A stretch of DNA of 63,802 nucleotides, filler included, from Reclinomonas americana ATCC 50394 (GCA_048213135.1; 6 parts of 5 records of this genome joined end to end with filler, not necessarily neighbours in it); one strand, 5' to 3'. Counted from the first letter of the whole stretch, positions 1-63,802 are shown. The notes: a model not told the origin generated them from the sequence alone. A program made the numbers and translations.

Positions 1-1136
1 AGGCAGTGGATCTCGGTGCCGTCCTGATCATAAATGTACACGTACTTTTTCTGGCTGACAGCAAAGAGCGTCTCGTTGTGCAGCCAGCTGCGTGATTCCA
101 CACACAATGTCAGGCGACAACAGTACACACTGCATCACTAAAACGCCTCACAAACGCAACGCAATGTCGCGCACGAGTTCCCGAACATGGAACTCCAGCT
201 TCGGCTTGTACGTGTGCAGATCGATGAGCGACAGATGACCCTTGCTGCCTCCCAGCGCCAGCCACCTACATCCACACGCACGTACGCTTCAGAATCACAA
301 CCCCTCCTCCGCACGGCATTGCTGCTGCTTCTTGCTCATCACCTTCCATTGCTGGTAAAGTCAAACTTGTACGGTCCAAAGTCCAACATCAAGTCAAACA
401 CCTTGCGCTGCGACTGCAGATCGACGGCCTCGACAATGGCACGCTGCTTGAATCGCTGCGTCTTCTCCATGCCCTCGGCCTCCAAGAAGCTGTCACAACA
501 CTCTCGTGTTGAGACGAGAGAGGAACAACCCAACGACGCAAGCACGCGCGCGCGACAACACTGACCCTGAGTCGTCGGGCATGAGGATCTCGGCACGCGC
601 AGCCCGCTGTGCCGCACGCTCCGCTTGCGTCTTCACTCGCTCCTGCATCTTTGACTTGCCACGCTCAAACAGCGACTTGCCCTTCTTCTTGTCGTGTTGC
701 CAGGCGCCCATCTTCTGCAACGCCTGTGCCACCACTGGCGTGTGTTGCGGCGTGGTCACCACCACGGCATCGTCGGGAATGGTTGTCTGTGGTGGTGGTG
801 GTGGTGGTCAGGAGATGTGAATGTGCACATGGCGCAAAAAAACACGAGCAGACGCACCGTGGTTCGCGTGTACTCTGGCACTTTCTCCTTCCACAGCGCC
901 TCGATGCGCGCCTTCTCCTCGTCGTCTTCAGCATCTCGCATCTCGTGGCGTTGTCGTTTCCGACGACCTGACAGACTCACTGGTGGCTCAGCATCATCCT
1001 CAGCCTCCGCCTCTGCGTCCTCGTGCTTCTTGCTGCTCTTCTTCGTCTTCGACTTCCGGCTCCCCTTGTCGGCGCCATCGACTTCCATGGCCACTTGCCG
1101 CTTGGCGCGCAGGATGAGGGCCGCCGCTGCGCTCAT
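1..1136 (-). CDS. WDR46: WD-repeat protein 46 / U3 snoRNP protein Utp7 (5' part, multi-exon, runs off the window start)
   Basis: Spliced minus-strand exons give [62 protein letters not shown]...[33 protein letters not shown], matching the Utp7/BING4 signature. Start codon uncertain (1136 or the downstream MEVDG). Confidence 0.9.
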
Positions 1137-1318
1137 GTCCGTCAGTCGTTGATCAAGTTGCAGGACACATGAGGGACGGCTTCATTGTGCCGGCCTTCAC
1201 GACCATCTCTTTGCGCTGCTGCATGTACGCACTGGGTACATCGCCTGAGCCGAACACACCGGCTCGGTGGGCGCTGCTCATCGCAGAAGCGTCGACATCG
1301 ACAGACAACAACAACAAA

Positions 1319-2531
1319 TCAAGTCGACTCGACGTCGTCGTTCTCCCCCGCTACTGCTGCTGGTGCTGCTGCTGGTGGCGCCACGCGGATACGCACTGCG
1401 AAATACTCGGGCGAGTGGGCGGAGGCGCTGGCCGGTCGTTCGTACGACACGGAGGGTGCGGCGCCCGAGTGGTAGGCGCCAGGGTGGCGATTGTTGCTGC
1501 CGACACGCCTGCCGACAGTGGTGGCCTTCATCTTCTTCCCGACGCTGATCTGCAAGTGCGCCAACTGCAGAGGCGGTGCCGTGGGCGACGTCGGCTCCAC
1601 CCGCCGCGCCACACACTCCACATCGCGATCGGGGTGCGCCAATCGCGTGATACGCAGCAGCCACTCGTCGCTGTTGGCGCGCGAACTGGACGGCTGTGGA
1701 TGCTGGCCGCCCACAGCCGCCGCCGACATTACCCGGAACGCCGAGTGCGCACAGAACGGCGCACCGCCCACCACCATGCGATAGGCGCACATGGAGGGCT
1801 CCTCGACCGACAACAACTGCAACTGCTCCACGCCCTTGATGCACACAAACTCGACAGTGGACTCACGCGCGCGGCCATTGTCGCACGGCTGCCCGTGCGT
1901 GTACACTCGTGTGGTGCCCGCCGGCGACTTGCCCTGGGTGGCGCCATCGAACGTGCCCAGTCGATACACATCGCCTCCGTTGCGCTGCGTGATCTCACCC
2001 GTCATGCACACCTCGTACGCCCACCACCCAAACGTGGCCGTGGCACACAGTCGCGCCGGCAACGACGACAGCAACTGCTGCGGTGTGCCCTTGTCTTCCG
2101 CCTTTTCCTCTTCTTCTTCTTCCTCCTCCTCTTCTTCTTCTTCAGGCTGGTCACCGCGTGCAGCGCCGACTGCTGTGCTGAACATGAACGCGCACACAAT
2201 GTCGACATCATCCTCCTCGCCTTCCTCACTCCACTGACACATGTCACCAAATGGTGAGCGATGCAACAAACACAAACACACACACACACACACACTTCTC
2301 ACGCACCTCAAGTGCCGCATGCACAGTGTGCACACCACCACCACCACTGGTGCCATCCTGCTTCTCACCACCACTGTTGTTGTCGTCGGTGATTTCAAAG
2401 TTGGCCAGTGCGCGCGAACCCTGCTTGCCTGCGCTCTGCTTGACAGGCATGAAGCGCGCGTGCACAGCAGCAACACCACCAATGACCAGCACAGTCACCA
2501 GCAGAACAACAAGGCAACTGCGTAGTCTCAT
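1319..2531 (-). CDS. ER lectin with an MRH (mannose-6-phosphate receptor homology) domain, OS-9/ERLEC1/PRKCSH-like
   Basis: Exon 1 (2531-2307) encodes a signal peptide MRLRSCLVVLLVTVLVIGGVAA. Exon 2 (2233-1319) encodes CATATFGWWAYEVC...YTHGQPCDNGRARESTVEFVC...SVEEPSMCAY, the MRH pattern. Confidence 0.8.
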
Positions 2532-2581
2532 CGCAACGACGGAAGCACACAAACCAACGAACGGCCACGAACGGAACAACA

Positions 2582-61317: not shown

Positions 61318-62106
61318 GATCCGCCCACGCACGATCCAAGTCACCCATGAGCTCTCGTCAGTCATCCGCTCGAGGCGGATCGGCCTCACTGAGCGGCGTC
61401 GCTCTGTCGCAACTGGCCGACGCCTCACAAATCGTAATCCCTTTCTCGCCTCCAGGCTCCAAGTCTGCAGGTGTGTGTGCCACCCCTCGCCCACCACCCC
61501 TCGCCCACCCAGCTCGCATTCACTCACCTCTCCACCGACAGGCAACACTCACTCACCAACCACCAACTTGCCGACTGTGCGTCGCGGAAGGAGTCCATCG
61601 CCGTCGCGATCACTCTCGCCGAGCGGTGTACGGCGGCGCAGCTTGTCGCCCCTGCCTCGTCGCGTGTCCTCCTCCAGCGCCGTTGGCGGTGGCGAATCGA
61701 GTGGCGTCATTGGTATTTCCACTCCAGAGTTGTGATGATGAGTTTCCTTTCTTGTTCATCTCACCTTGCGTGCACGCAGATGGCGCCGAACGTGCGCGCC
61801 CACTCTTCTCCGTGCCCGACGATGCCCGTGCTCATCTGGCCTACAATGGAGGTGCGATCGCCAGCACTGTCATTGCGCACTCTTTATTAACTCACTCCTC
61901 CCCACTTCCCAGACTCCATCTCCTCCATTGTCCCCCTGTTGTCACCGGAGCAAGTCGCCGGTGTCTTCCAGTTCCTCCCGGCGGTGCAGACGTGCGCCAA
62001 TGTGGAGTTGAATCCGGTCGTGCTGATGCGGTTGGTCGAGCACCACATGCTGCGACTGACCAGCGCCGCCGCATGCACGGTATTCCTGGTGGACGACGTC
62101 TCCAAG
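61318..62106 (+). CDS. Multi-exon gene fragment, possibly the start of a GAF domain
   Basis: Spliceable exons; the last encodes VELNPVVLMRLVEHHMLRLTSAAACTVFLVDDVSK, resembling the GAF helix + CxxFLVD strand. Confidence 0.35.
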
Positions 62107-62890
62107 GTTTGCTGGGCAGTTCTCTCACTCTGTCGCTATTCTCTGCGCGTTTTTATTGCCACTGTATCGTATTCTTTTCTTGCTTGCGCCCGTCATTGCC
62201 GCACTGCGCTCTCTCATCGTGCCCTACCCTCCTCCTCCTCTCATCCTTCTCCATCTTGTCCTTATTCATGCTCTTTTTCTTCTCCCCTGACTGCCCTATC
62301 CCCCTCTTCTCGCTTCACCCAGCCCTGCTCCTTGTCCTCCTATCCTCCTCCTCTCTGTTTCCTTCCGTCTTCGTGCCTCGCACCAGTGCTCCTTTTCCTT
62401 TTCTGTTTCTGTCTTTCCCCCTCTCTTCCCCCCTCTCTTCTCCTTTCTCTTCCCCCATCCTCTTACCGCTCTCTTCCCTCTCTCTTCCTTCTCTCTTCCC
62501 CCTTCGTCTTCCCCCTTCTCTTCCCTCTCTCTTCCTTCTCTCTTCCCCTCTCTTCCCCCTCTCTTCCCCCTTCTCTCTTCCCCCATCCTCGTACCCCTCT
62601 CTTCCCTCTCTCTTCCCCTTCCCTGCCTCCTTTCCTCACCCTCTTNNNNNNNNNNNNNNNNNNNNNNNNNNNNNNNNNNNNNNNNNNNNTTAATTAATTA
62701 ANNNNNNNNNNNNNNNNNNNNNNNNNNNNNNNNNNNNNNNNNNNNGCGCTGCATAAAGCATGCAGGCAATGGAAGCTTGTTGCGTGTGACCGTGCACGCA
62801 ACGAAAGAGGAAATCATTTCGACAATCATTCTTTTTTTTCAGCGTCTTTTGTGAGCCAACCTCGTCACCCTTCCAATCAACAACAACAAA

Positions 62891-63745
62891 ATGGCGTCTC
62901 GTGTCATCAGTGGACTGAAGAAGACCCCCGAGCTGTTGCGTGATATGAGAGTGAGACGAGGAGAGCACGAGTTGTGTGTGTGTGTGACGCTCTCTGTCTT
63001 TCTCTCTCCTTTCTCTCTCTTCCCTGCGCTCGTGTATACACACACACACGCATACTTACTGTGTGTGTCTCTCTCACACACGCACGCACATGCACACAAT
63101 AATCTCTCTGTGCACGTTTTTCCAATCATTCTTTCTTCCCTTTACCCTTTCTCGTCTCTCTCTTTTCTCTTCTTTACACATACACACACGCACTCTCTTC
63201 CACACACACACGCACTCTTCTGTGCACGCGCGCGCAAGCACAACAATCGGTTTCCAATCATTGTTTACTCCTCTCTTCCTTTTGCCTTTCTCTCTCTTTC
63301 CTCACTCTCTCTCACACGCACTGTCTCCCTCTCCTGTGTGCACACACAAGCGCACGTGCTCCCACCTCTGTGTGTGCGTGTGTGTCAGTTCGATTTGCGT
63401 GTCTTCCCTTTTCCCTTTCCGCTCACTTTCACTCTCTTCTCTCTCTCACTCACTCTGCCCCCACCACACACACACTCGTCACCCTTACTGCACCCTTCTC
63501 ATCCCTTTCTCTCGCGCGTGCTCTGTTTTGCGACATGGCGAAAAAATGGCTCACTCAAACACACACACAGGCAGCCGTTGGCGTTCTTCTCGCTCTTCGC
63601 CCTGGGCCTGAGCGGCGGCTACATTGCCCGCACCCTGTCCAAGGTGAGCAAACAAAAACAAAACACAAGAAGAAGTTGTTGTTGTTTTCGAGATGGCGCT
63701 CATCAGTCTCTCTCTCTTTGTGTTTGTGCAGCACCCCGACGTCGT
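62891..63745 (+). CDS. NDUFA4/COXFA4 (B12D/MLRQ family) small mitochondrial membrane protein, 5' part
   Basis: Spliced MASRVISGLKKTPELQPLAFFSLFALGLSGGYIARTLSK-HPDV: PELxPL + TM + PDV pattern. Confidence 0.65.
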
Positions 63746-63802
63746 GTTGCGTATACACACACACACACACACACACACACACACACACACACACACACAC
63801 AC

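What the first reader, a model, noticed from the sequence alone, without database searches (positions are those of the whole stretch)
154..63752. Abundant one-nucleotide-shifted 5' splice sites (H|GT-Y-GCGT/TCGT/GAGT/ACG)
Seen: ordinary donors here are mostly G|GTGCGT, GTGAGT, GTTCGT or GTACGT (G at +5). About 16 introns instead need or favour a donor with one extra pyrimidine after GT, putting G at +6. GTTGCG: 160(-), 13025, 18028, 23392, 24704, 24807, 54687(-), 54836(-), 62935, possibly 63746. GTTTCGT: 13141, 23655, 36422(-), 56239(-). Others: GTTGAGT 2750, GTCGCGC 2601, GTTACGC 12398. Every one has a non-G at exon position -1. Several are fixed by protein homology: WDR46 VRDIA-WLHNE, the ArfGAP zinc finger, SMCHD1-like HVSIL-IQAG, GPAA1 YKK-FASIP, NDUFA4-like PEL-QPL. 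Established: shifted U1 pairing at atypical donors (ACA|GUUAAGU) was described by Roca and Krainer as a rare class in human. Inference: here it looks like a major class (very roughly one intron in five or six, hand count), which suggests modified U1/U6/U5 recognition or a variant snRNA.
Basis: partly seen in the sequence, partly recalled or inferred. Interest (0 to 1): 0.75.

Follow-up and report, generated by a model that had tools for sequence, protein, structure and literature searches.

The report
One-base-shifted splice donor class
In this stretch of an unidentified intron-rich eukaryote, perhaps one intron in five starts with GTTGCGT or GTTTCGT instead of the usual G|GTGCGT, as if the same signal were read but cut one base earlier, a mode known only as a rarity in humans.

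Summary
All 17 motifs lie at the stated coordinates.

**Support for the 17 sites**
- Three are fixed by homology. Donor 160(-) is fixed by WDR46/Utp7: 36 residues lie between two exon anchors in each of four solved chains. Donors 23392 and 23655 are fixed by the ArfGAP zinc finger.
- 13025 and 13141 are the only GT-AG solutions between flanking reading frames.
- 2750 and 54836 have no good alternative.
- 62935 rests on frame and recalled homology.
- 2601 has an in-frame alternative, 2613, which is itself GTTGCGT.
- Six have competing canonical models: 12398, 18028, 24704, 24807, 36422, 56239.
- Two cannot be judged: 54687, 63746.
- I found one more candidate, 14126.

**The class is coherent**
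- T at +3 in 18 of 18, C at +5 in 17 of 18, G at +6 in 18 of 18.
- G at -1 in 0 of 18, against 23 of 25 ordinary donors.
- So GTTGCGT is G|GTGCGT read one base earlier. This favours a shifted register over a bulge.

**Frequency:** 3 of 20 introns in one large gene, against under 0.05% for comparable registers in human.

No RNA data, genome or snRNA gene was available. The mechanism and the genome-wide frequency are inferred.

The parts
88..160 (-). Intron (73 nt) of the WDR46/Utp7 gene with donor C|GTTGCGT; the best-supported shifted donor
   Evidence: Exon 345-488(-) ends at human WDR46 (7mq8_LW) residue 206/207. Exon 163-264(-) covers 210-242. Exon 3-86(-) starts at 244. In 5wlc_LW, 7suk_LW and 5oql_F, 36 residues lie between the outer exons, equal to 1+34+1 here. 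The in-frame alternative GTGAGG 9 nt downstream would add 3 residues.
23392..23514 (+). ArfGAP (AGFG-like) intron 1 (123 nt), donor A|GTTGCGC
   Evidence: Exon 1 aligns to 2olm_A 6-32. The chain shows Cys-x16-Cys. Exons 1+2+3 read give exactly 16 residues only with this donor. The in-frame GTAAGC 15 nt downstream would give 21.
23655..23713 (+). ArfGAP intron 3 (59 nt), donor A|GTTTCGT
   Evidence: An in-frame TAG overlaps the donor. Exon 4 (23715-23804) aligns to 2olm_A 62-85. There are 29 residues between Cys28 and that His, against 30 in the chain.
13025..13093 (+). Intron (69 nt) in the large NHL/lectin gene, donor T|GTTGCGT
   Evidence: The only GT-AG solution between ORF anchors. The alternatives are a 36-nt intron or skipping the 47-nt exon with GTACAAT. 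Neither has G(+5).
13141..13216 (+). Intron (76 nt), same gene, donor T|GTTTCGT
   Evidence: The only solution between the anchors. With looser bounds, GTTTGA at +13 with a CCAG acceptor is also in frame.
14126..14191 (+).
   Evidence: The only GT-AG pair between the anchors, with a branch-like CTCAC and TGCAG. It is in frame and free of stops, so the reading frame does not require it.
2613..2677 (+).
   Evidence: One search lists both. The donor-blind parses chose 2613. No homology is available.
2750..2818 (+). Intron (69 nt) upstream of the LRR ORF, donor C|GTTGAGT
   Evidence: The only frame-consistent GT-AG pair. A TGA follows the donor in frame (read context).
54781..54836 (-). Intron (56 nt) in the Gaa1/GPAA1-like gene, donor A|GTTGCGT
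   Evidence: It is needed to join two open frames. There is no G(+5) alternative except a 47-nt intron. Homology at this junction could not be tested.
62935..63570 (+). Long intron (636 nt) after the first coding exon of a small NDUFA4-like gene, donor T|GTTGCGT
   Evidence: Frame reading. The alternative GTGAGA at 62951 with acceptor 63574 adds 4 residues. The family assignment is recalled and untested (searches found nothing).
36358..36422 (-). Ambiguous: GHKL-ATPase (SMCHD1/MORC-like) gene, donor C|GTTTCGT with a CAG acceptor
   Evidence: The rival is GTGCGT at 36409 with an AAG acceptor at 36351.
56233..56239 (-). Ambiguous donor C|GTTTCGT in the Gaa1-like gene; the intron crosses an assembly gap
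   Evidence: The Pfam Gaa1 match ends at this exon end. The rival is GTGCGC 5 nt downstream with the GAG acceptor.
12398..12468 (+). Ambiguous donor A|GTTACGC
   Evidence: Canonical GTACGT at 12359 is in frame with the same acceptor.
18028..18098 (+). Ambiguous donor T|GTTGCGT after the L-type lectin domain
   Evidence: The frame stays open to G|GTGCGT at 18102. After the claimed intron only 5 codons are open.
24704..24874 (+). Ambiguous pair of donors T|GTTGCGT (24704, 24807) in the ArfGAP gene tail
   Evidence: 35 frame-consistent paths exist. One is a single intron 24728-24874 with G|GTGAGG.
54681..54687 (-). Donor-like T|GTTGCGT that cannot be judged
   Evidence: It is followed by CT repeats and a contig linker at 54191-54290.
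63746..63752 (+). Donor-like T|GTTGCGT that cannot be judged
   Evidence: The window ends 50 nt later.

Best explanation
The window comes from an intron-rich eukaryote with short introns, mostly 55-130 nt, that have CTNAY branch-like motifs and a CAG end. Its common donor is G|GT(G/A)(C/A)GT.

A second, real class of donors reads H|GTT(G/T)CG(T/C). It is the same seven-base signal, G-K-T-G-C-G-T, in which the first GT lies one base further upstream, so the cut falls one base earlier relative to the signal. The most likely mechanism is the shifted register described for rare human sites. The snRNA that first recognises the donor (U1) pairs with TGCGT and with the first G as if that G were the last exon base. 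The later steps (U6, U5/Prp8) then cut at the only GU present.

Shown: the motifs; three donors pinned by protein homology; two to four more required by reading frames; the base statistics of the class.

For: (1) Homology. The WDR46/Utp7 exon anchors enclose 36 residues in human, two yeast and Chaetomium chains, equal to 1+34+1 with donors 342(-) and 160(-).

(2) ArfGAP. CX2CX16CX2C spacing, and 29 against 30 residues to the next anchor, are obtained only with donors 23392 and 23655.

(3) Frames. 13025 and 13141 are the sole solutions between ORF anchors. 3 of 20 usable intervals in that gene can only be solved with GTT(G/T)CG donors. 2750 and 54836 lack good alternatives.

(4) Class coherence over 18 sites: +3 T 18/18, +4 G 13 or T 4, +5 C 17/18, +6 G 18/18, +7 T 15 or C 3.

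(5) Register. G at -1 in 23 of 25 ordinary donors against 0 of 18 shifted ones (Fisher 3e-10), and 0 of the 9 best-supported (1e-6). The two pinned donors that lack G(+5) but are not of this class both keep G at -1: 342(-) AAG|GTGATG and 23552 G|GTTCTC.

(6) Architecture. 11 of 46 H|GTT[GT]CG[TC] sites have a branch-like motif plus YAG at 50-90 nt, like 12 of 51 G|GT[GA][CA]GT. The comparisons are 677 of 6275 other GTs, 14 of 112 with a non-T base at +3, 2 of 34 scrambled and 0 of 6 with G at -1.

(7) Intron lengths of 55-76 nt for 12 of 13 defined shifted introns match ordinary ones.

(8) No shared interior sequence, so the class is not a copied intron family.
Against: - There is no RNA evidence at all. 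No run was listed, so no junction has been observed.
- Six of the 17 claimed sites have an ordinary-donor rival and two cannot be judged.
- My ORF anchors and curated donor lists were chosen by eye, knowing the claim. The ordinary set was partly defined by G(+5).
- My donor-blind gene finder and frame tests had no power even for ordinary donors.
- The architecture test is modest (p about 0.01) against a base rate of 11%.
- With a human-type U1 5' end, GUUGCGU gives no stable duplex (+0.5 kcal/mol), so the shifted-U1 mechanism needs an unobserved change in U1 or help from proteins.
- T, not A, is the commonest -1 base (8 of 18). The shifted register with a standard U1 does not predict this.
- C at +5 is stricter (17/18) than C at +4 of ordinary donors (12/25). 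A plain shift does not explain that.
- The window is only 57.5 kb of real sequence, made of concatenated contigs.
Confidence: 0.6

Rival explanations
1. A dedicated variant snRNA. A second U1 (or U1-like) species has a 5' end that pairs with GUUGCGU in the ordinary register, so the class is a separate donor type with its own reader and not a shifted reading of the common one.
For: The class is very uniform. GTTGCG makes up 13 of 18 sites and C at +5 is present in 17 of 18, stricter than the equivalent position of ordinary donors at 12 of 25. A human-type U1 end cannot pair with it. The absence of G at -1 would follow if the variant lacks the C that faces -1.
Against: No snRNA gene could be examined. 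The one-base offset identity with the commonest ordinary donor (G|GTGCGT against |GTTGCGT) is explained more simply by a single reader. Both donor types occur side by side in the same genes.
Confidence: 0.15
2. Bulged register. U1 pairs in the ordinary register from +1 G, and one of the two Us at +2/+3 is bulged out, as in the human 'bulge +2/+3' sites.
For: A UU doublet at +2/+3 is exactly what that register needs, and T at +3 is found in 18 of 18 sites. The register is experimentally known in human (PMC4856993, Figure 1C legend and Table 3).
Against: In that register -1 would still face the same U1 base as in ordinary donors, so G at -1 should remain favoured. It is found in 0 of 18 against 23 of 25. 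None of the 6 G|GTT[GT]CG[TC] sites shows intron architecture.
Confidence: 0.12
3. No special class. Donors in this organism are simply degenerate, the GTTGCGT sites are a by-product of composition plus hand annotation, and many true junctions use nearby ordinary GTs.
For: Other odd donors exist: GTGATG at 342(-), GTTCTC at 23552, and GTAACT, GTGCCC or GTGACG options. Six of the 17 sites have ordinary rivals. At 160, 23392, 36422, 56239 and 62935 a GTGAG/GTGCG/GTAAG lies 5-16 nt downstream.
Against: Three sites are pinned by homology against exactly such downstream rivals. The class is far too uniform for chance. Control heptamers do not show the architecture signal.
Confidence: 0.08
4. A recently spread intron family (introner-like) that carries its own fixed 5' end.
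For: Six sites share GTTGCGTC.
Against: All-against-all blastn of the interiors of 13 shifted and 22 ordinary introns gave only microsatellite matches of 11-28 nt, as often between the two classes as within the shifted class. The introns lie at unrelated positions of unrelated genes.
Confidence: 0.03

Closest known systems
Shifted-register U2-type 5' splice sites of human (Roca and Krainer 2009, known to me through reference 10 and Figure 1B legend of PMC4856993; the 2009 paper itself was not read)
   Same: A GU at +1/+2, a pyrimidine at +3, and the consensus GU-proximal bases displaced by one position, so that G lies at +6 and U at +7. The cut is at the GU, although the helix with U1 is offset by one base.
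   Different: In human the class is a rarity and was proven by compensatory U1 mutations. Here it would be roughly 15-25% of introns in the window and nothing is proven experimentally. The core is UGCGU rather than UAAGU, which a human-type U1 end does not pair with.
Bulge +2/+3 and other noncanonical U1 registers in human (PMC4856993; abstract, introduction passages, section 18 with Table 3 and discussion passages read)
   Same: The same sequence type (GUU...) could in principle use a bulged U.
   Different: Table 3 lists 68 predicted (54 after curation) bulge +2/+3 sites among 201,541 human donors, and 1.5% for all validated noncanonical registers together. Here the lack of G at -1 (0 of 18) argues against an unshifted, bulged helix.
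Lineages with a G|GTGCGT donor consensus (Micromonas AG|GTGCGT, PMC3879977; Ostreococcus GTGCGTG, PMC2483917; one or two passages of each read)
   Same: The ordinary donor of this window has the same unusual C at +4 and a CTGAC-like branch motif.
   Different: Those passages describe no shifted subclass. The identity of this organism is unknown, and nothing ties it to those algae.
U12-type (minor) introns
   Same: A second donor class that coexists with the main one in the same genes.
   Different: The minor-class donor box (recalled as RTATCCTT) is absent. All 18 sites read GTT(G/T/A)(C/A)G, and the introns end in ordinary CAG/TAG with CTNAY motifs.

Membership tests
Shifted-register 5' splice sites (Roca-Krainer type) | Cleavage at a GU whose downstream bases match the donor consensus only when displaced by one position | tested here: met
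   Position counts over 18 sites: +3 T 18/18, and +4 to +7 read G/T, C, G, T, like +3 to +6 of 25 ordinary donors.
Shifted-register 5' splice sites (Roca-Krainer type) | The first intron G takes the place of the exon -1 G in the helix, so -1 loses its G preference | tested here: met
   G at -1: 0 of 18 against 23 of 25, Fisher 3e-10.
Shifted-register 5' splice sites (Roca-Krainer type) | More stable pairing with the organism's own U1 5' end in the shifted than in the ordinary register | not testable with these tools
   No U1 gene in the window and no genome. With a human-type end the duplex is +0.5 kcal/mol. With a hypothetical end complementary to GGUGCGU it is -6.2.
Shifted-register 5' splice sites (Roca-Krainer type) | Actual use of the site shown by RNA, and the register shown by compensatory U1 mutations | not testable with these tools
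   No RNA run was listed. Use is inferred from protein homology at 3 sites.
Bulge +2/+3 register | Ordinary register kept on both sides of one bulged U, so exon -1 still pairs | tested here: not met
   G at -1 is absent (0 of 18), and 0 of 6 G|GTT[GT]CG[TC] sites show intron architecture. The evidence is indirect.
U12-type introns | Extended donor box and a matching branch site (motif recalled) | tested here: not met
   Donor strings do not contain it.
Non-GT-AG introns (GC-AG, AT-AC) | Terminal dinucleotides other than GT...AG | tested here: not met
   All modelled introns are GT...AG.
Introner-like repeated introns | Sequence similarity along the intron between copies | tested here: not met
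   Only microsatellite matches among 35 intron interiors.

The most novel reading that the evidence does not exclude
Across the whole genome of this organism, about one intron in five is cut one base upstream of where the common donor signal would place the cut. This would happen because a single, diverged U1 5' end (suited to UGCGU) binds G-K-U-G-C-G-U in one register, and the catalytic spliceosome then simply takes the first GU. That would make it a natural system in which donor recognition and cut-site choice are routinely uncoupled.
Probability: 0.35. Interest if true: 0.8.

Novelty: new variant of a known kind. Interest (0 to 1): 0.62.

Why it matters
In human, shifted and bulged U1 registers are exceptions. 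All validated noncanonical registers together make up 1.5% of donors (PMC4856993). An organism in which a shifted donor is a routine, tightly defined class would give many natural test cases for how the cut site is fixed after U1 leaves. It would also show whether a changed U1 5' end can open a second register.

On the practical side, gene finders trained on a single donor matrix would misplace such junctions by choosing nearby ordinary GTs. At 160(-) and 23392 that would insert 3 and 5 residues into conserved protein cores.

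Tried and rejected
**Data that were not available**
- RNA evidence: no RNA holder was listed for window 10300-16400.
- Whole genome: none held.
- Rfam at gathering thresholds: 0 matches, so no snRNA to inspect.
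- Earlier scan notes: none for this genome, and one unrelated note by words.

**Searches for relatives**
- Three homologous-protein searches found nothing. One search was in the wrong frame through my own error. One search used an 80-aa Gaa1-like exon. One search used the 304-aa glucosidase-II-beta-like ORF.
- The one exhaustive search (82-aa exon next to 13141) gave a single hit, P0001. It is a 1674-aa tandem-repeat protein matched over 27 residues, which I regard as spurious.
- Pfam on 92 and 94 single ORF fragments gave almost nothing for short exons. Useful matches were Gaa1 positions 6-50 ending at the 56239 exon end, a kinesin motor end at 6022-6240, and Pkinase pieces that place an ordinary donor AAG|GTCTGC at 28203.
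- PDB searches with the Gaa1-like exons and the NDUFA4-like exon (one search was in the wrong frame) found no relative.
- The protein atlas gave no taxon. The organism stays unidentified.

**My own methods that failed**
- Gene finder without a donor model, and with a floored donor model. It produced many false introns in repeats and drifted on retraining.
- Frame and coding-score tests of every GT. These had no power: ordinary hexamers passed at base rate.

**Literature**
- Searches for shifted base-pairing or shifted register, for the heptamers as words, and for shifted pairing together with protists or fungi found no report of an abundant shifted class. The library lacks many subscription papers, so this is weak evidence that none exists.

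Full report
**What the window is**

The window is 63,802 bases with 6,293 N in 28 runs. Five of the runs form the pattern N44-TTAATTAATTAA-N44. This is a six-frame stop linker between concatenated contigs, so neighbouring pieces need not be adjacent in the genome. No whole genome is held. No RNA run was listed. No Rfam family, and so no snRNA gene, is present.

Coding regions have 69% G+C at codon position 3. Pfam finds:
- a tandem family of intronless ankyrin-repeat genes;
- a glucosidase-II-beta-like ORF, an LRR protein and a COQ10-like ORF;
- a kinesin end, a kinase and an L-type lectin piece;
- a Gaa1-like exon.

Introns are short, with CTNAY motifs 15-35 nt before a CAG or TAG. I could not identify the organism.

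**The observation**

None has G at -1.

**Homology tests: WDR46/Utp7 (minus strand, 1-1300)**
- Exon 345-488 aligns to human WDR46 (7mq8_LW) residues 159-206 over query residues 1-47 of 48.
- Exon 163-264 aligns to residues 210-242 over query residues 2-34.
- Exon 3-86 aligns to residues 244-271.
- With one split codon at each junction, the numbering is continuous: 207, 208, 209 ... 242, 243, 244.
- The count is independent of the weak middle match (E = 0.047). In yeast 5wlc_LW the outer exons end at 122 and start at 159. In 7suk_LW they end at 87 and start at 124. In Chaetomium 5oql_F they end at 148 and start at 185. That is 36 residues each time, equal to 1+34+1 here.
- The only other in-frame donor for the second junction, GTGAGG 9 nt downstream, would make it 39.
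- So C|GTTGCGT at 160(-) is used. So is AAG|GTGATGAG at 342(-), a donor without G(+5) that keeps G at -1.

**Homology tests: ArfGAP gene (plus strand, from 23299)**
- Exon 1 aligns to AGFG1 (2olm_A) residues 6-32. Exon 4 (23715-23804) aligns to residues 62-85.
- The chain printed shows 16 residues between the two cysteine pairs. This is the spacing that I recall as the ArfGAP zinc-finger rule.
- Reading, exon 1 contributes 3 residues after its second Cys. Exon 2 (23515-23551) plus the first bases of exon 3 (23630-23654) contribute 13, giving 16.
- The in-frame rival GTAAGC at 23407 would give 21.
- Between that Cys and the His of exon 4 there are 29 residues here and 30 in the chain.
- Exon 3 ends at an in-frame TAG that overlaps the donor A|GTTTCGT at 23655.
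- So 23392 (GTTGCGC) and 23655 are used.
- The intron between them starts G|GTTCTCAT (23552), a third kind of donor that again has G at -1.
- The next two donors are ordinary: AAG|GTGCGG at 23805, and G|GTTTGT at 23994.

**Frame tests: the large gene at 10.3-16.4 kb**

This gene encodes NHL-like repeats and then an L-type lectin domain. It has no relatives in the libraries I could reach. I chose 24 protein-like ORF stretches as anchors. I chose them by eye and knowing the claims, so the test is not blind. I then listed every GT-AG pair that joins neighbouring anchors without a stop.
- Of 23 intervals, two had no solution. One used an anchor that I now think is in the wrong frame. That leaves 20.
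- Fourteen of the 20 offer a GTNNG donor.
- Three can only be solved with GTTGCGT (13025), GTTTCGT (13141) or GTTGCGC (14126, a new candidate).
- Three offer only other odd donors: GTAACT/GTGTAC/GTGGCG, GTGCCC/GTTACA, and GTAAAG/GTGACG.
- The 14126 intron is 66 nt, in frame and free of stops, so the frame does not demand it.

**Frame tests: elsewhere**
- 2750 has no alternative. 54836 has none with G(+5) except a 47-nt intron. 2601 competes with GTTGCGT at 2613.
- 62935 joins the first exon of a small gene to an exon at 63571. The rival GTGAGA at 62951 with acceptor 63574 adds four residues. My reason to prefer the shifted donor is a recalled alignment to NDUFA4, which no tool confirmed.

**Sites that do not hold up as 'needed'**
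- 12398: GTACGT at 12359 is in frame with the same acceptor.
- 36422: GTGCGT at 36409 with an AAG acceptor.
- 56239: GTGCGC 5 nt downstream with a GAG acceptor 2 nt further on.
- 18028: the frame is open up to G|GTGCGT at 18102, and after the claimed intron only five codons are open.
- 24704 and 24807: among 35 frame-consistent paths, one is a single intron with G|GTGAGG at 24728.
- 54687 and 63746 cannot be judged.

**Is the class more than chance?**
- GTTGCGT occurs 18 times on both strands against 10.4 expected from a third-order model.
- I also ran a test that ignores coding. It asks whether the first CAG or TAG preceded by a CTNAY motif lies 50-90 nt downstream:

| Site type | Sites passing |
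|---|---|
| H\|GTT[GT]CG[TC] | 11 of 46 |
| G\|GT[GA][CA]GT | 12 of 51 |
| H\|GT[GA][CA]GT | 16 of 148 |
| Same heptamer with a non-T base at +3 | 14 of 112 |
| Scrambled version | 2 of 34 |
| GTT[GT]C[ACT] | 9 of 91 |
| G\|GTT[GT]CG[TC] | 0 of 6 |
| All other GTs | 677 of 6275 |

- Against 'all other GTs', Fisher gives p = 0.009 for the shifted heptamer and 0.007 for the ordinary one.
- The effect is modest. It is as large for the shifted heptamer as for the best ordinary donor motif, and it is absent from the controls.

**Anatomy of the class**

- Ordinary donors: -1 G 23/25; +3 G 18; +4 C 12, A 9, T 4; +5 G 25 (by definition); +6 T 19.
- Shifted donors: -1 G 0/18 (T 8, A 5, C 5); +3 T 18; +4 G 13, T 4; +5 C 17; +6 G 18; +7 T 15, C 3.
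- Slid by one base, the shifted site reads G-T-T-G-C-G-T against the ordinary G-G-T-G-C-G-T. They differ in a single base, and that difference moves the first GT one position upstream.
- The loss of G at -1 has Fisher p = 3e-10, or 1e-6 for the nine best-supported sites. This is what a shifted helix predicts, because the first intron G occupies the slot of the exon G. A bulged U with the ordinary register kept does not predict it.
- The ordinary list was assembled from seeds defined by GT(GAGT|GCGT|ACGT|AAGT) and from my models. It was not selected on -1.
- The interiors of 13 shifted and 22 ordinary introns share only microsatellite matches, so the class is not a copied element.

**Mechanism**

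The closest precedent is the shifted register of human U1 pairing, together with the bulge +2/+3 register. In human these are rare. PMC4856993 gives 54-68 bulge +2/+3 sites among 201,541 donors and 1.5% for all validated noncanonical registers.

A nearest-neighbour estimate with the human U1 end printed in that paper gives:
- -5.0 kcal/mol for GGUGCGU;
- -10.5 kcal/mol for GGUGAGU;
- +0.5 kcal/mol for GUUGCGU.

If U1 reads these sites, its 5' end is probably not human-like. A made-up end complementary to GGUGCGU would give -12.9 and -6.2 kcal/mol. The latter is close to the -6.5 I compute, and the paper lists, for a validated human shifted site. This is arithmetic on a hypothesis, not evidence for a variant U1. 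A second U1 species that pairs with GUUGCGU in the ordinary register remains possible. It would also explain why C at +5 is nearly invariant.

**Comparison with what is known, and novelty**

The kind of site is known. Its apparent frequency, its tight consensus around UGCGU, and its strict complementarity with the -1 G rule are not described in anything I found. A G|GTGCGT consensus by itself is known from Micromonas and Ostreococcus. I therefore rate it a new variant of a known kind. The claim rests on 57.5 kb of sequence, three homology-pinned junctions and no RNA.

**Verdict**
The motifs and the -1 rule hold fully. About half of the 17 sites are well supported, six are ambiguous and two cannot be judged.
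- The interpretation as a major shifted-register class is the best reading (confidence 0.6).
- The snRNA inference is open.

Noticed in passing
21804-21903, 29930-30029, 35698-35797, 54191-54290, 62646-62745: Five identical spacers, N44-TTAATTAATTAA-N44. This is a six-frame stop linker used to string contigs together, so genes and introns that run into these points may continue on DNA that is not truly adjacent.
   Followed up: partly
342(-), 23552(+), and options at 11359, 15133, 15815(+): Donors without G at +5 that are not of the shifted type (GTGATG, GTTCTC, GTAACT, GTGCCC, GTGACG) all have G at -1. The first two are pinned by homology. G at -1 seems close to obligatory unless the donor is GTT(G/T)CG.
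   Followed up: partly
14126-14191 and 14675-14806 (+): Two candidate introns of 66 and 132 nt are multiples of three without in-frame stops, so retention would keep the reading frame.
   Followed up: no
160(-), 23392, 36422(-), 56239(-), 62935, 13141: Several shifted donors are followed 5-16 nt downstream by an ordinary-looking GTGAG/GTGCG/GTAAG/GTTTG. At 160 and 23392 homology shows that the upstream, shifted site gives the conserved protein. Whether the downstream motif helps recruit U1 was not tested.
   Followed up: no
29000-52700, both strands: At least seven large, apparently intronless ankyrin-repeat ORFs of one family (for example 30372-32180(-), 33370-35484(-), 38660-40486(+), 43344-44459(-), 45837-48224(+), 51122-52429(+)). 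Similar flanking introns of the type GTTTGTTGT...CTGAC...CAG|TTGA recur next to them.
   Followed up: no
10271-16419 and 17699-18100 (+): One very large multi-exon gene with NHL-like repeats at the start and an L-type lectin domain at the end, split by an assembly gap. It has no detectable relatives in the 1.84-billion-protein library apart from a spurious repeat hit.
   Followed up: partly
24120-24530, 35660-35700: Odd low-complexity DNA rich in ACGT, GTTCG and GGTAACGG units flanks assembly gaps. Long (CT)n, (CA)n and (GTGA)n arrays fill many introns and spacers.
   Followed up: no
6022-6240 (+): The last 72 residues of a kinesin motor domain (Pfam positions 254-325, E = 4e-31) start directly after a 559-N gap. 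The rest of the motor is missing from the assembly.
   Followed up: no
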